A stretch of DNA of 64,000 bases from Escherichia coli (GTDB lineage Bacteria > Pseudomonadota > Gammaproteobacteria > Enterobacterales > Enterobacteriaceae): assembly GCF_045037415.1 (NCBI RefSeq), contig NZ_CP173438.1, one strand, 5' to 3'. Of the stretch, positions 11,913 to 16,595 are shown piece by piece; position 1 is the stretch's first letter, and each line of letters begins with the position of its first letter. The notes beneath the pieces were generated by a model. That model saw only the letters and a program-made list of their open reading frames with translations. It ran no database searches and had not been told where the DNA came from. The position numbers and the translations under genes were made by a program.

Positions 11913-12158
11913 ATGCGAATTGAAGTCACCATAGCGAAAACTTCTCCATTGCCAGCTGGGGCTATTGACGCCCTGGCTGGCGAACTTTCCCGCCGTATTC
12001 AGTATGCGTTTCCTGATAATGAAGGCCACGTATCGGTACGTTATGCCGCAGCAAATAATTTATCGGTTATTGGCGCGACAAAAGAAGATAAACAGCGCAT
12101 TAGCGAAATTCTCCAGGAGACGTGGGAAAGCGCCGATGACTGGTTTGTCAGCGAATAA
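11913..12158 (+). CDS. dinI: DNA damage-inducible protein DinI (81 aa)
   Basis: Protein MRIEVTIAKTSPLPAGAIDALAGELSRRIQYAFPDNEGHVSVRYAAANN... is DinI; ATG at 11913. Confidence 0.93.
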   Translation: MRIEVTIAKTSPLPAGAIDALAGELSRRIQYAFPDNEGHVSVRYAAANNLSVIGATKEDKQRISEILQETWESADDWFVSE

Positions 12159-12179
12159 TATGCAGTGATTTTTGTTTTT

Positions 12180-12206
12180 GCCGGGTCGCCCCGGCTTTTT
12201 TATTTT
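12180..12206 (+). terminator. Rho-independent terminator downstream of dinI
   Basis: Hairpin gccggg-tcgc-cccggc followed by ttttttatttt. Confidence 0.8.
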
Positions 12207-12446
12207 ACTTGCGAATTGTGAGTACAAAATTTCTACACTTACTCAAAATAATTGCACAATATGCTAAAAAAATATGAATGACATGCTGTTTTATTGTTCA
12301 TATAAATCTTAAAAGCAGAAATTTATCTGTTCCCCCTTTAAAAATTCGGTGAATACCCTTACTTATTGGTATACTGAAGTTGCTTCAGATAAAAACGCAT
12401 TGAACCTCGAATAACGTTGTCTAGTAACACGAATTAGGGGGCCATG

Positions 12447-12701
12447 ATGGAAAAAAATAATGAAGTCATTCAGACTCATCCGCTCGTAGGGTGGGACATC
12501 AGCACCGTTGATAGCTATGATGCGCTGATGTTGCGTTTGCACTACCAGACCCCAAATAAGTCCGAGCAGGAAGGGACTGAAGTTGGTCAGACGCTCTGGT
12601 TAACCACTGATGTTGCCAGACAATTTATTTCGATATTAGAAGCAGGAATCGCCAAAATTGAATCCGGTGATTTCCAGGTAAACGAGTATCGGCGTCATTA
12701 A
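12447..12701 (+). CDS. bssS: Biofilm regulator BssS (84 aa)
   Basis: Protein MEKNNEVIQTHPLVGWDISTVDSYDALMLRLHYQTPNKSEQEG... is BssS; tandem ATGs at 12444 and 12447, second chosen to give 84 aa. Confidence 0.88.
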   Translation: MEKNNEVIQTHPLVGWDISTVDSYDALMLRLHYQTPNKSEQEGTEVGQTLWLTTDVARQFISILEAGIAKIESGDFQVNEYRRH

Positions 12702-12815
12702 CATGACATGACCATCCACCCAAAAGGCACCTCACCGGTGCCTTTACCATTTCTGGGTTGTATATCTGCATTCAGTTAATTACTCTGCTTAAACCATGAG
12801 AGCAGAGAGAAAAAA

Positions 12816-13934
12816 ATGAAATACGATCTCATCATTATTGGCAGCGGTTCCGTAGGCGCTGCCGCCGGGTATTATGCAACCCGCGCCGGTTTAAACGTGC
12901 TAATGACCGACGCCCATATGCCACCGCATCAACACGGCAGCCACCACGGCGATACGCGATTAATTCGCCATGCTTATGGTGAAGGCGAAAAGTATGTCCC
13001 GCTGGTCCTCCACGCGCAAATGCTGTGGGATGAACTTTCCCGCCACAACGAAGATGATCCCATTTTTGTACGCTCTGGTGTCATTAACCTCGGTCCGGCT
13101 GACTCCGCATTTCTCGCCAACGTCGCCCACAGCGCCGACCAGTGGCAACTCAACGTTGAAAAGCTCGACGCGCAAGGGATTATGGCCCGCTGGCCAGAAA
13201 TACGCGTCCCGGACAACTACATCGGTTTATTTGAAACTGATTCCGGTTTTTTGCGCAGCGAACTGGCGATTAAAACCTGGATCCAACTGGCGAAGGAAGC
13301 GGGCTGTGCGCAGCTGTTCAACTGCCCGGTCACCGCAATTCGTCATGACGATGATGGCGTAACTATTGAAACGGCAGACGGTGAGTATCAGGCGAAAAAA
13401 GCGATTGTCTGCGCGGGAACATGGGTAAAAGACCTACTCCCGGAGCTGCCTGTCCAGCCCGTACGCAAAGTATTTGCCTGGTATCAGGCCGATGGCCGCT
13501 ATAGCGTGAAGAATAAATTCCCGGCATTTACCGGTGAGCTGCCCAATGGCGATCAATATTATGGTTTTCCGGCAGAAAACGACGCGTTGAAGATTGGCAA
13601 ACATAACGGAGGCCAGGTTATCCATTCAGCGGATGAACGTGTTCCGTTTGCGGAAGTGGCCAGCGATGGTTCGGAAGCCTTCCCGTTCTTGCGCAATGTG
13701 TTGCCGGGTATCGGTTGCTGCCTGTACGGCGCTGCCTGCACCTATGATAATTCGCCTGACGAAGATTTTATTATCGATACCCTACCCGGCCACGATAATA
13801 CACTGCTCATTACCGGCCTGAGTGGGCACGGTTTTAAATTTGCGTCAGTTTTAGGGGAAATAGCTGCCGATTTTGCGCAAGACAAAAAAAGCGATTTTGA
13901 TTTGACGCCATTCAGGCTTTCCCGCTTCCAATAA
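12816..13934 (+). CDS. solA: N-methyl-L-tryptophan oxidase SolA (372 aa)
   Basis: Protein [34 protein letters not shown]... has an FAD GxGxxG motif and matches SolA (MTOX); ATG at 12816. Confidence 0.95.
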
Positions 13935-13942
13935 TCATCATT

Positions 13943-13968
13943 ACGGCCTCCAGAATGAGGCCGTTTTT
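13943..13968 (+). terminator. Rho-independent terminator downstream of solA
   Basis: Hairpin acggcctc-cagaat-gaggccgt followed by ttttt; begins 9 bp after the solA stop. Confidence 0.7.
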
Positions 13969-14095
13969 ACAGGAGTATTTAATGCGTCGACTGTTGCACT
14001 ATCTCATCAATAATATTCGCGAGCATCTGATGCTTTATCTTTTTCTCTGGGGATTGTTGGCAATTATGGATCTGATCTATGTGTTTTATTTTTAG
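13955..14095 (+). CDS. yceO: Small protein YceO (46 aa)
   Basis: Short ORF (below the track's size cut-off) read by hand: [46 protein letters not shown]. The ATG at 13955 lies in the loop of the solA terminator hairpin; an internal ATG at 13982 would give 37 aa. Confidence 0.6.
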
Positions 14096-14355
14096 TTTTC
14101 CGCACTGACATAAACTGACAAATATTTAATCTCCCTTTCATTTAGCGTGAAAAATTGAATGAGATTCTTCCTGCCTCTACAGCACTCACTAGACCTTCCA
14201 GATGCTTAACCCACTAAACTTATGAAGATTCTTTCATTATTAATTCAAAATTATTGAAATAAAAATAAATATCATTCAATTTGTTATTTTTGTGTTGCAA
14301 TTCATTCTCCGACACGCCATTTTCTTTCTCTCGCAAATTCGTTTTGGATGTACTT

Positions 14356-14922
14356 ATGTCATTCACAAATACCCCTGAACGCTATGGTGTTATATCTGCG
14401 GCCTTACATTGGCTAAGCGCAATTATTGTCTACGGCATGTTTGCTTTAGGTCTGTGGATGGTCACGCTCAGTTATTACGATGGCTGGTATCACAAAGCAC
14501 CCGAACTGCATAAAAGCATCGGTATTTTGTTAATGATGGGGCTGGTTATTCGCGTTCTGTGGCGTGTCATATCTCCACCGCCGGGTCCGCTGCCGAGTTA
14601 TTCGCCCATGACTCGTCTTGCAGCAAAAGCTGGACATCTCGCATTGTACCTATTGCTGTTCGCCATCGGCATCAGCGGCTATCTGATCTCAACTGCCGAT
14701 GGTAAACCGATCAGCGTTTTTGGCTGGTTTGACGTCCCCGCGACCCTCTCCGACGCTGGCGCACAGGCTGACTTTGCCGGTGCCCTGCATTTTTGGCTCG
14801 CGTGGAGCGTTGTAGTACTGTCCGTTATGCACGGATTTATGGCCCTGAAGCATCATTTCATCGATAAAGACGACACTCTGAAGCGCATGCTGGGAAAGTC
14901 GTCATCTGACTATGGAGTATAA
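14356..14922 (+). CDS. yceJ: Cytochrome b561 family protein YceJ (188 aa)
   Basis: Protein MSFTNTPERYGVISAALHWLSAIIVYGMFALGLWMVTLSYYDG... is YceJ; ATG at 14356. Confidence 0.92.
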   Translation: MSFTNTPERYGVISAALHWLSAIIVYGMFALGLWMVTLSYYDGWYHKAPELHKSIGILLMMGLVIRVLWRVISPPPGPLPSYSPMTRLAAKAGHLALYLLLFAIGISGYLISTADGKPISVFGWFDVPATLSDAGAQADFAGALHFWLAWSVVVLSVMHGFMALKHHFIDKDDTLKRMLGKSSSDYGV

Positions 14923-14925
14923 AAA

Positions 14926-15501
14926 ATGAAAAAAAGCCTGCTTGGTTTAACCTTCGCTTCCTTGATGTTCTCTGCCGGTTCAGCGGTTGCCGCCGATTAC
15001 AAAATTGACAAAGAAGGTCAGCACGCCTTTGTTAACTTCCGAATCCAGCATCTTGGCTATAGCTGGTTATATGGCACCTTCAAAGATTTCGACGGTACTT
15101 TTACCTTTGATGAAAAAAATCCAGCTGCCGATAAAGTGAATGTGACAATTAACACCACCAGCGTCGATACTAATCACGCCGAACGCGATAAACATCTTCG
15201 CAGTGCGGATTTCCTCAATACCGCAAAATATCCACAGGCAACATTCACCTCCACCAGCGTGAAGAAAGACGGTGACGAACTGGATATTACCGGCAATCTG
15301 ACGCTGAATGGTGTAACCAAGCCCGTCACACTGGAAGCGAAATTAATTGGTCAGGGTGACGACCCGTGGGGCGGTAAACGTGCAGGCTTTGAGGCCGAAG
15401 GCAAAATTAAGCTCAAAGACTTCAATATCAAGACAGATTTAGGTCCAGCGTCTCAGGAAGTGGATCTGATTATTTCAGTGGAAGGCGTACAGCAGAAGTA
15501 A
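14926..15501 (+). CDS. yceI: Periplasmic polyisoprenoid-binding protein YceI (191 aa)
   Basis: Protein [38 protein letters not shown]... has a signal peptide and matches YceI; ATG at 14926, 4 nt after the yceJ stop. Confidence 0.93.
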
Positions 15502-15511
15502 GAGTGAAATG

Positions 15512-15535
15512 TTGCCGGATGGCACGCATCCGGCA
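15512..15535. terminator. Shared hairpin between convergent yceI and yceA
   Basis: ttgccggatg-gcac-gcatccggcaa inverted repeat between the yceI stop (15501) and yceA stop (15543). Confidence 0.6.
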
Positions 15536-15542
15536 ATGATAT

Positions 15543-16595
15543 TTATTCTGTTGGATCAGGAATGCCCAGTGTTGTATTCAGACGTCCACGAGACTTATTA
15601 AAGATCTTATTGCCATTTTCACGTCCTGCCCGACGGCGTCGCTGTTCCTCTGGCGGTAACGCGCTTTCTTCGCAGCAAATCTCACTACAACAACCTTTGT
15701 ATTTTTCCGCACATACTGGACACTGAATAAACAGCAGATGGCAGCCATCATTTTTACAGTTGGTATGGCTGTCGCACGGCGCACCGCACTGGTGGCAGTG
15801 CGCGATAATCTCATCAGATATACGTTCGCCCATCCGCTCGTCAAAAACAAAATTTTTGCCAATAAAACGCACCGGCAAGCCCTGCTCGCGCGCCTTACGG
15901 GCGTATTCAATAATTCCGCCCTCGATATGCCAGACTTTGTTGAATCCGTTATGTTTCATCCAGGCACTGGCCTTTTCACAACGAATGCCGCCGGTGCAGT
16001 ACATGACGATTTTTTTATCTTTATGTGCCTGCATCATCTCAACTGCTTTTGGCAGCTGCTCACGGAAGGTATCTGCCGGTATTTCCAGCGCGTTTTCAAA
16101 GTGCCCCACTTCATACTCATAGTGGTTACGCATGTCGATAAACAATGCATCGGGATCGTCAAGCATGGCGTTCACTTCCGCCGCTTGCAGATACTCACCA
16201 ACATTGCTGGCATCAAAGTGAGGATCGTCAATACCGTCGGCAACAATGCGATCGCGTACCTTCATACGCAGTACCCAGAAGGATTTCCCGTCATCATCCA
16301 ACGCGATATTCAGGCGTAAACCCTCTAAAGCCGGATCGAAGGCATAGAGCTGTGCGCGAAATGTTTCAACATTGCTCGCAGGTACGCTGATTTGCGCGTT
16401 AATGCCCTCATGCGCCAGATACACTCGCCCAAAAACATTCAGCGCGGTAAACAGTTGATATAAAGCGTCACGGGTCACCTTAGGATCGGCAATGTGGAAA
16501 TACTTATAAAACGAAATGGTGGTTCGCGGTTCGCTCTCAGCCAACATTTTGGCTTTTAACGCGTCGTTGGAAATGCGGTTGTGTAACACTGGCAT
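15543..16595 (-). CDS. yceA: Rhodanese-domain protein YceA / TrhO (350 aa)
   Basis: Protein [38 protein letters not shown]... has a rhodanese active-site cysteine context ([10 protein letters not shown]) and C-terminal Cys cluster; ATG at 16595. Confidence 0.9.

What the first reader, a model, noticed from the sequence alone, without database searches (positions are those of the whole stretch)
13943..14095. yceO start codon sits inside the solA terminator hairpin
The solA terminator hairpin (13943-13964) plus T-run contains the ATG (13955) of the 46-codon yceO frame in its loop. If this start is used, the first codons of yceO would be sequestered in the terminator structure, so translation would depend on read-through or a separate promoter. 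Alternatively the real start is the internal ATG at 13982 (37 aa), or the ORF is not expressed as annotated.
Basis: partly seen in the sequence, partly recalled or inferred. Interest (0 to 1): 0.25.

Follow-up and report, generated by a model that had tools for sequence, protein, structure and literature searches.

The report
Mis-annotated yceO start after solA hairpin
The ATG inside the hairpin after solA is a chance in-frame codon from an old 46-codon annotation; the conserved small membrane protein YceO is 37 residues long and starts 27 bases further on, behind its own ribosome-binding site.

Summary
An 8-bp GC-rich hairpin (13943-13964) followed by T5 sits 8 nt after the solA stop. ATG 13955-13957 spans the loop/3'-arm junction and opens a 46-codon frame ending at 14095.

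That ATG is very unlikely to be the functional start:
- **Annotation.** NCBI's pipeline annotates 13982-14095 (37 aa). The Pfam DUF2770 profile covers only residues 10-45 of the 46-aa form.
- **Conservation.** In 80 species-level loci, the Met aligned with 13982 is ATG in 74 and GTG in 5. An ATG at -27 occurs only in 3 Escherichia loci. In 24 of 78 loci an in-frame stop rules out the extension. The hairpin-to-start distance shows no reading-frame preference.
- **Initiation signals.** ATG2 has AGGAG 6 nt upstream (-6.9 vs -1.7 kcal/mol anti-SD pairing).

The hairpin itself is real and conserved, with compensatory changes (92.9% of cells paired; 0/500 shuffles reach this). There is no room for a promoter between it and yceO. 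I therefore infer that yceO is transcribed through the hairpin, most likely by read-through from solA. This fits the very low reported YceO levels.

Verdict: an ordinary annotation artefact, already corrected in RefSeq though not in the K-12 reference record. Low interest.

The parts
12816..13934 (+). solA (N-methyl-L-tryptophan oxidase), 372 aa, stop TAA 13932-13934
   Evidence: ORF. Pfam DAO match at 1.7e-51. RefSeq annotation. Lies upstream of yceO in 80/80 related loci.
13930..13935 (+). AATAAT overlapping the solA stop: a -10-like hexamer, and only a candidate
   Evidence: NATAAT is present in 48/77 loci and 14/26 genus groups. The last solA codon is A-ending for 7 different amino acids. 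There is no usable -35 and it is not called by the promoter scan. No synonymous-site constraint in the solA 3' end.
13943..13964 (+). Conserved GC-rich hairpin (8-bp stem, loop CAGAAT), the terminator-like structure after solA
   Evidence: Fold. Consensus hairpin over 72 sequences, with all 7 predicted pairs showing compensatory changes. 92.9% of cells paired versus 78.3% in shuffles (0/500), and at most 53% when slid.
13964..13968 (+). T5 run (the U-tract of the terminator)
   Evidence: Sequence. At least 5 T in the 8 nt after the GC core in 42/72 related intergenic sequences, and at least 4 in 58/72.
13955..13957 (+). ATG1: a fortuitous in-frame ATG at the loop/3'-arm junction, and the start of the legacy 46-aa annotation
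   Evidence: An ATG at -27 occurs only in L004, L005 and L009. It is TTG in L006-L008 and absent or blocked by stops elsewhere. Anti-SD duplex -1.7 kcal/mol; opening cost 17.5 kcal/mol. NC_000913.3 still annotates this start.
13971..13975 (+). Shine-Dalgarno AGGAG, 6 nt before ATG2
   Evidence: Anti-SD duplex -6.9 kcal/mol. An SD-like element precedes the aligned start in most loci (median -4.3 versus background -2.2; 47/78 at or below -4 versus 17% background).
13982..14095 (+). yceO coding sequence as supported here: 37 aa [37 protein letters not shown] plus stop (DUF2770)
   Evidence: PGAP annotation WP_001253418.1. Pfam PF10968 at 79.1 bits covers residues 10-45 of the 46-aa form. The start is conserved in 79/80 loci as ATG or GTG. 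Family alignment.
14096..14355 (+). yceO-yceJ intergenic region, with no terminator-like site after yceO
   Evidence: The scan finds no terminator until 15510-15538, after yceI. yceJ lies downstream on the same strand in 65/80 loci, with a median gap of 262 nt.

Best explanation
yceO encodes a 37-residue DUF2770 small membrane protein. Translation starts at ATG 13982, using the AGGAG at 13971-13975.

The ATG at 13955 is an accident of the hairpin sequence. It is made of the last two loop bases plus the first G of the 3' arm. 'Residues' 2-5 of the 46-aa form (R-P-F-L) are simply the translation of the 3' arm and U-tract (AGG CCG TTT TTA).

The hairpin is a structure conserved across Enterobacteriaceae that follows solA. 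In E. coli, with its T5 tail, it most likely acts as solA's intrinsic terminator.

Only 17 nt separate the hairpin from the start codon, and 14-32 nt in most relatives, so there is no room for a promoter in between. yceO mRNA must therefore contain the hairpin. The simplest model is that yceO is made from solA transcripts that read through a leaky terminator, which would explain its very low level.

Shown: the hairpin and its covariation; conservation of ATG2 and its SD; non-conservation of ATG1; the solA-yceO synteny.

Inferred: that ATG2 is the start used in vivo; that the hairpin terminates transcription; that read-through supplies yceO.
For: - **Annotation.** PGAP places the CDS at the position equivalent to 13982-14095 in three E. 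coli genomes.
- **Family profile.** The Pfam DUF2770 profile (36 positions) aligns to residues 10-45 only. In an exhaustive HMMER search, most relatives match from query residues 9-11 onward, and they are 37-38 aa proteins starting MRR....
- **80-species comparison.** The aligned start is ATG in 74, GTG in 5 and ATA in 1. An in-frame stop lies within 27 nt upstream in 24/78. ATG at -27 occurs in only 3.
- **No coding signal in the spacer.** The hairpin-to-start distance modulo 3 is 28/22/22, so there is no frame constraint.
- **Initiation energetics.** SD pairing is -6.9 versus -1.7 kcal/mol, and the opening cost is 11.3 versus 17.5 kcal/mol, both favouring ATG2.
- **Hairpin covariation.**
- **Synteny and spacing.** solA is upstream in 80/80 loci, with a gap of 40-133 nt in 77. 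Buttiauxella has a 7-nt gap and no hairpin, which implies co-transcription.
- **No embedded promoter.** No promoter-like site is called upstream of the hairpin, and there is no synonymous-site constraint in the solA 3' end.
- **Expression level.** Chromosomal YceO-SPA is detectable but at least 10,000-fold below pBAD expression (PMC12529367).
Against: - **No direct start-site data.** I could retrieve no Ribo-RET, Onc112 or TetRP data for this gene. The TetRP supplements do not mention it.
- **No mapped 3' end.** No RNA 3' end at the hairpin appears in the Term-seq tables that are held. Those files may be truncated, or solA may be poorly expressed under those conditions.
- **Borderline terminator call.** The simple terminator scan does not call the hairpin.
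- **ATG2 not fully open.** In a 200-nt context, ATG2 is only moderately accessible (mean P(unpaired) 0.37).
- **Variable T-tail.** In Klebsiella, Raoultella and Pluralibacter the same hairpin lacks a T-rich tail on this strand. Termination of solA is therefore not its universal role.
- **The 46-aa form is still in use.** The K-12 reference record and a 2025 proteomics study use it. The N-terminal peptide was seen only from a plasmid built with the 46-codon ORF.
Confidence: 0.78

Rival explanations
1. The 46-aa protein is really made. Ribosomes initiate at ATG 13955, for example by re-initiation of ribosomes that have just terminated at the solA stop 21 nt upstream and have melted the hairpin. 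This could happen alone or alongside the 37-aa form.
For: ATG1 is the first AUG after the solA stop and is in frame, with no stop before ATG2. It is retained in E. coli, E. albertii and a divergent E. coli lineage. The 70-nt region is at least 95% identical in 5413 E. coli genomes. The K-12 reference record annotates it. The peptide [11 protein letters not shown] is detectable when the 46-codon ORF is expressed from pBAD.
Against: There is no SD (-1.7 kcal/mol) and the start lies in a stable stem-loop. ATG1 is TTG in three other Escherichia species, and the extension is impossible or different in other genera. The spacer shows no frame conservation. The Pfam profile excludes the extension. The N-terminal peptide was not seen in wild type, although neither was the internal peptide.
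Confidence: 0.07
2. yceO has its own weak promoter whose -10 element overlaps the solA stop codon (AATAAT 13930-13935). The transcript would start at about the first base of the hairpin (about 13942-13944). The hairpin would then act as a 5'-terminal stem-loop that stabilises the short yceO mRNA, rather than only as solA's terminator.
For: NATAAT is present at the solA stop in 48/77 loci and 14/26 genus groups, with the last solA codon A-ending for 7 different amino acids. The hairpin starts 5-11 nt after the stop in most genera, which is the right distance for a transcription start. In Yersinia, where yceO is about 1 kb from solA, a perfect TATAAT lies 30-35 nt upstream of the ATG and there is no hairpin.
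Against: There is no acceptable -35 or TG extension in E. coli, and the site is not called by the promoter scan. No synonymous constraint is seen in the last 60 solA codons. TAA followed by T is a generally favoured stop context, and many of the loci are closely related. In Klebsiella the hairpin is 34-37 nt from the stop. A hairpin plus U-tract at +1 to +26 would tend to terminate its own transcript. No transcription start near this position appears in the Cappable-seq tables that are held (these may be truncated).
Confidence: 0.13
3. The hairpin is not primarily a solA terminator. It would instead be a general RNA-stability or processing element, or a terminator whose strand depends on the lineage, with yceO simply co-transcribed with solA without attenuation.
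For: The stem is conserved by covariation even where the T-tail is lost. In 10 Klebsiella, Raoultella and Pluralibacter loci the T-run is on the opposite strand, and trhO converges on yceO. No 3' end was recorded at the hairpin in the Term-seq tables I could read.
Against: In Escherichia, Citrobacter, Lelliottia, Leclercia and Kosakonia the tail is T-rich on the solA strand (42/72 with at least 5 of 8 T). The stem, loop and tail geometry in E. coli fits an intrinsic terminator (d = +9.9).
Confidence: 0.12
4. yceO is not a real gene and the frame is a chance ORF after a terminator.
For: It is very short, there is no NCBIfam model hit, and its level is very low in LB.
Against: It has been conserved as a 37-38 aa ORF for the whole of Enterobacteriaceae and into Yersinia, with invariant N10, N11, R13, W23 and D30. 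The Pfam family match is 79 bits. YceO-SPA is seen on immunoblot, and YceO is listed as detected by top-down MS.
Confidence: 0.02

Closest known systems
N-terminal over-extension from the 'longest ORF' rule in legacy E. coli K-12 annotation (the kind of error corrected by homology-based pipelines and by start-site ribosome profiling such as TetRP, PMC4909307)
   Same: An in-frame upstream ATG without an SD was chosen as the start. The conserved family and NCBI's pipeline place the start at the downstream ATG that has an SD.
   Different: Here the spurious ATG is built from a hairpin's loop and stem, so part of the false extension (RPFL) is conserved at the nucleotide level for RNA-structure reasons. 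That can look like protein conservation (for example P0101).
Operon-internal intrinsic terminators or attenuators that set the ratio of upstream to downstream gene expression (for example the rplL-rpoB attenuator and the rpsU-dnaG T1 terminator; from established knowledge)
   Same: A hairpin with a U-tract lies between two co-directional genes, and the downstream gene has no room for its own promoter after the hairpin. The downstream product is present at a low level.
   Different: Partial read-through has not been measured here. The downstream gene is a 37-codon ORF starting only 17 nt after the hairpin.
5'-terminal stem-loop mRNA stabilisers (ompA type; from established knowledge)
   Same: A stable hairpin lies immediately upstream of an unstructured ribosome-binding site.
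   Different: No evidence was obtained that a transcript starts at the hairpin. This hairpin also carries a U-tract.
E. coli small inner-membrane proteins of 50 aa or fewer (the Storz-lab set; YceO-SPA strain cited in PMC12529367)
   Same: A short basic N-terminus is followed by a single hydrophobic stretch of about 22 residues (Kyte-Doolittle mean +2.05). The protein has low abundance and is detected by SPA tagging.
   Different: No partner or biochemical function is known. The only label I found is 'acid stress small protein' in a table in PMC12997748.

Membership tests
DUF2770 / YceO family (Pfam PF10968) | Significant match to the family profile over its full length | tested here: met
   79.1 bits against a cut-off of 25, E = 2.4e-22. 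Profile positions 1-36 of 36 align to residues 10-45 of the 46-aa frame, which are residues 1-36 of the 37-aa protein.
DUF2770 / YceO family (Pfam PF10968) | Protein of about 37 aa with the NN[IV]REH motif, followed by a hydrophobic C-terminal segment | tested here: met
   Alignment A1 has N10, N11, R13, W23 and D30 invariant. The Kyte-Doolittle mean is +2.05 for residues 16-37.
DUF2770 / YceO family (Pfam PF10968) | Genomic position immediately downstream of solA (my own criterion, derived from the comparison) | tested here: met
   solA lies upstream on the same strand in 80/80 loci and is adjacent (133 nt or less) in 78.
Rho-independent (intrinsic) terminator | GC-rich stem-loop | tested here: met
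   An 8-bp stem with 6 G-C pairs, -14 to -16 kcal/mol, conserved with compensatory changes.
Rho-independent (intrinsic) terminator | U-rich tract immediately 3' of the stem | tested here: inconclusive
   There is a T5 run, but the first T is paired. The rule-based scan did not call it, while the d-score is +9.9. The tail is T-rich in 42/72 relatives and T-poor in the Klebsiella group.
Rho-independent (intrinsic) terminator | An RNA 3' end mapped at the U-tract in vivo | tested here: inconclusive
   No 3' end at U00096.3 11194xx appears in the held supplementary tables of PMC7815308, although the neighbouring bssS terminator is listed. The tables may be cut, and solA may be poorly expressed.
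Start codon sequestered in a regulatory hairpin (translational control by structure) | The sequestered codon is the functional, conserved start | tested here: not met
   ATG1 is present at -27 in only 3 of 78 loci. The extension is blocked by stops in 24, and there is no frame conservation.
Operon-internal attenuating terminator | The downstream gene lacks its own promoter and depends on measured partial read-through | not testable with these tools
   The lack of space for a promoter is shown (a 17-nt gap). Read-through itself needs RNA data.

The most novel reading that the evidence does not exclude
The hairpin may be kept not merely as solA's terminator but as a built-in part of yceO expression, conserved for the whole of Enterobacteriaceae.

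One version is an attenuator whose read-through is modulated by ribosomes finishing solA only 5-11 nt upstream, which would couple YceO synthesis to solA translation. Another is a 5'-terminal stabiliser of a transcript fired from a -10-like NATAAT that overlaps the solA stop codon.

The strand flip of the T-run in Klebsiella and Raoultella, where the hairpin appears to serve convergent trhO and would make trhO's 3' UTR antisense to all of yceO, would be a further regulatory layer.
Probability: 0.18. Interest if true: 0.35.

Novelty: already known. Interest (0 to 1): 0.15.

Why it matters
The practical value is small but real. Two public annotations of the same gene disagree: 46 aa in NC_000913.3, 37 aa in PGAP/RefSeq.

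Experiments designed on the 46-aa form target sequence that the native protein probably lacks. Examples are the synthetic peptide [11 protein letters not shown] used for targeted MS in PMC12529367, and plasmids that express the 46-codon ORF.

The comparison also shows that solA-hairpin-yceO is an ancient, fixed arrangement. That gives a simple, testable explanation for YceO's extremely low abundance: it would be made only from transcripts that pass a terminator-like hairpin.

Tried and rejected
- **Literature search for direct evidence.** I searched the full text for yceO. I then looked in the supplements of the TetRP start-site paper, the Term-seq paper, Cappable-seq and SMRT-Cappable-seq, and in several papers whose supplements are not held. 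None gave a start-site, transcription-start or 3'-end record for yceO or the solA terminator. Hemm 2008, Hemm 2010 and the EcoSal review are not held.
- **Rfam scan.** A scan of 12000-16000 at E <= 1 found nothing.
- **NCBIfam.** No model hit.
- **Promoter embedded in solA.** A test of third-position entropy across 78 orthologues showed no constraint in the last 60 codons. I rejected a conserved -35 or upstream element there.
- **Terminator scoring with a fixed 6-bp core stem.** This undervalues all the hairpins (d > 0 in only 12/72), so I did not use it as a classifier. I report simple T counts and the best-hairpin scores instead.
- **An anti-SD-like CUCC in the 5' arm pairing with the yceO SD as a switch.** Rejected, because the 5' arm is paired to its own 3' arm before the SD is transcribed, and the alternative is only 4 bp.
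- **dN/dS on the 9-codon extension within Escherichia.** There are too few substitutions to be meaningful.

Full report
**What the window holds.** The region is 100% identical to E. coli strain SK1144 and 98.6% identical to K-12. The gene order on the + strand is bssS, solA, yceO, yceJ, yceI. solA runs from 12816 to 13934.

Eight bases after its TAA stop comes ACGGCCTC-CAGAAT-GAGGCCGT (13943-13964), followed by TTTT. It folds as an 8-bp hairpin in both the MFE and centroid structures (centroid -16.3 kcal/mol). ATG 13955-13957 uses the last two loop bases and the first base of the 3' arm, and opens a 46-codon frame ending at 14095. A second in-frame ATG lies at 13982. K-12 is identical across the hairpin, both ATGs and the ribosome-binding site.

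**Two annotations exist.** The K-12 reference record NC_000913.3 annotates the 46-aa form (b1058, 1119307-1119447). NCBI's pipeline annotates 114 nt, or 37 aa, starting at the position equivalent to 13982. The product is named 'YceO family protein' in two of the genomes checked and 'DUF2770 family protein' in the third. The Pfam DUF2770 profile has 36 positions and aligns to residues 10-45 of the 46-aa sequence, exactly from the second Met.

**Comparative evidence on the start.**
- A word-indexed search found 46-aa versions only in E. coli and Shigella records. E. albertii, E. marmotae and others have 37 aa.
- An exhaustive HMMER search of 1.84 billion representatives found 37 relatives. Most align from query residues 9-11 and begin MRR....
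- From an alignment of the core I retrieved 80 species-level loci from Escherichia to Yersinia.
- The codon aligned with 13982 is ATG in 74, GTG in 5 and ATA in 1.
- An in-frame stop lies within 27 nt upstream in 24 of 78 loci, which makes a 9-codon extension impossible there.
- An ATG at -27 occurs in only three Escherichia loci. Three other Escherichia species have TTG there.
- The number of bases between the hairpin's 3' arm and the start falls into the three frames as 28/22/22. The spacer therefore evolves as non-coding DNA.
- Some gene callers in other genera also produce extensions containing 'RPFL' (for example P0101). This happens because the 3' arm plus T-run (GAGGCC-TTT-YT) happens to be read in frame, not because a peptide is conserved.

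**Initiation signals.** AGGAG (13971-13975) lies 6 nt before ATG 13982. Its pairing with the 16S 3' end is -6.9 kcal/mol, against -1.7 kcal/mol for the best site upstream of ATG1. The cost of opening -18 to +12 is 11.3 versus 17.5 kcal/mol. SD-like pairing precedes the aligned start family-wide: the median is -4.3 versus a background of -2.2 kcal/mol. I found no direct start-site data.

**The hairpin is real and old.**
- solA is upstream of yceO in all 80 loci.
- In 77 loci the gap is 40-133 nt, and it nearly always contains a strong stem-loop (median -15 kcal/mol) ending 14-32 nt before the start.
- MAFFT plus RNAalifold recover one consensus hairpin, with compensatory changes at all 7 predicted pairs.
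- With an 8-pair structure, 92.9% of cells pair versus 78.3 ± 0.9% in shuffles (0/500). There are 103 double-change cells versus 33 ± 7 in shuffles. Sliding the partner drops pairing to at most 53%.
- The tail has at least 5 T in 8 in 42 of 72 distinct sequences.

In E. coli the geometry fits an intrinsic terminator, although the simple scan misses it by one T. No RNA 3' end is recorded there in the Term-seq tables I could read, whereas the bssS terminator just upstream is. That is inconclusive.

**How yceO is transcribed (inference).**
- No promoter can fit between the hairpin and the start, so the mRNA must include the hairpin.
- No promoter-like site is called in the solA 3' end, and synonymous sites there are unconstrained.
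- Buttiauxella has solA and yceO 7 nt apart with no hairpin, which argues for co-transcription as the basic arrangement.
- I therefore favour read-through of a leaky solA terminator. This fits chromosomal YceO-SPA being at least 10,000-fold below pBAD-driven levels (PMC12529367).
- No terminator-like site follows yceO until after yceI, so read-through transcripts may continue into yceJ-yceI.

A rival is a weak promoter whose -10 is the NATAAT overlapping the solA stop. This hexamer is present in 48/77 loci, with an A-ending last codon for seven different amino acids. Yersinia, where yceO is separated from solA, has a perfect TATAAT instead of a hairpin. I rate this rival at about 0.13, because E. 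coli has no -35 and TAA-T is a favoured stop context anyway.

**The protein.** It has 37 aa: a basic N-terminal 15 residues followed by 22 hydrophobic residues (Kyte-Doolittle mean +2.05). That fits a single-pass membrane protein, which is an inference from sequence. Its function is not addressed here. One paper's table labels it an acid-stress small protein.

**Verdict.** The feature is an annotation artefact sitting on an ordinary, well-conserved terminator-like hairpin. The correction is already in RefSeq and Pfam, so the novelty is 'already known'. It still matters for users of the 46-aa sequence. The peptide [11 protein letters not shown] used for targeted MS would not exist in the native protein if this analysis is right.

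Noticed in passing
window 14102-14119, about 14243-14257, 14293-14301 and 14318-14326: The yceO-yceJ intergenic region keeps a length of about 262 nt in 65/80 loci. It contains blocks at least 90% conserved across 37 diverse Enterobacteriaceae. These include a direct repeat CACTGACATAAACTGAC 8 nt after the yceO stop, and a palindrome TTCAAAATTATTGAA. There is no Rfam match and no other exact copy in the window. Unexplained; it could be regulator binding sites for yceJ-yceI.
   Followed up: partly
L070:1455-1480 and 1600-1614 (Klebsiella grimontii); also L031, L064, L067-L069, L072, L077, L080, L082: In Klebsiella, Raoultella and Pluralibacter, yceJ-yceI are missing after yceO. In L070, trhO on the opposite strand converges on yceO and overlaps its 3' end by about 15 nt. 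The conserved hairpin upstream of yceO carries its T-run on the minus strand. It therefore looks like the trhO terminator, which would make trhO's 3' UTR antisense to the whole of yceO.
   Followed up: partly
L079:1435-1463 and L083:1455-1470 (Yersinia): In Yersinia, yceO lies about 1 kb from solA, has no upstream hairpin, and is preceded by a perfect TATAAT 30-35 nt before the ATG. In L079 there is also a TTGTTT at a 17-nt spacing. This looks like an independent promoter.
   Followed up: partly
L075 (Buttiauxella sp. A111), around 1490-1503: The solA stop and the yceO ATG are only 7 nt apart (ttcaggTGAgccgacaATG) with no hairpin. An AGGTGA SD lies inside the end of solA, which suggests direct translational or transcriptional coupling.
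   Followed up: no
window 13929-13935: The last sense codon of solA ends in A, and the base after TAA is T, in 48/77 orthologous loci. This holds although the last amino acid varies (Q, K, R, G, E, A, P), and gives a -10-like NATAAT. It could be a stop-context preference or a weak promoter element.
   Followed up: partly
window 13987-14014 (+) and 14279-14250 (-): The consensus scan reports a promoter-like site inside yceO on the + strand (TCGACT-16-AATAAT). It reports another on the minus strand in the yceO-yceJ spacer (TTGAAT-18-AATAAT) that would fire antisense into yceO. The total number of sites equals the chance expectation.
   Followed up: no
window about 12983 (U00096.3 1120419, minus strand): A supplementary table of PMC7815308 lists an RNA 3' end internal to solA, about 170 nt into the ORF (ratio 2.75, p = 2e-6). 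I take this table to be the bicyclomycin (Rho) comparison but did not verify that. If the 3' end is Rho-dependent, little transcription would reach the hairpin and yceO.
   Followed up: no
yceO coding region, window about 14030-14095; proteins P0024, P0030, P0036, P0052, P0085-P0098: Public E. coli protein sets contain many yceO variants. Some have frameshifted C-termini (for example ...[13 protein letters not shown]...), and some have in-frame LY repeat expansions (LYLYLYLF). These suggest slippage in the T-rich or repeat stretch, or sequencing errors.
   Followed up: no
PMC12529367 (literature): The targeted-MS assay for YceO used the peptide [11 protein letters not shown] and a pBAD construct of the 46-codon ORF. 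If the native protein is 37 aa, that peptide cannot be found in wild type and the plasmid makes a non-native protein. The second peptide, [10 protein letters not shown], remains valid.
   Followed up: partly
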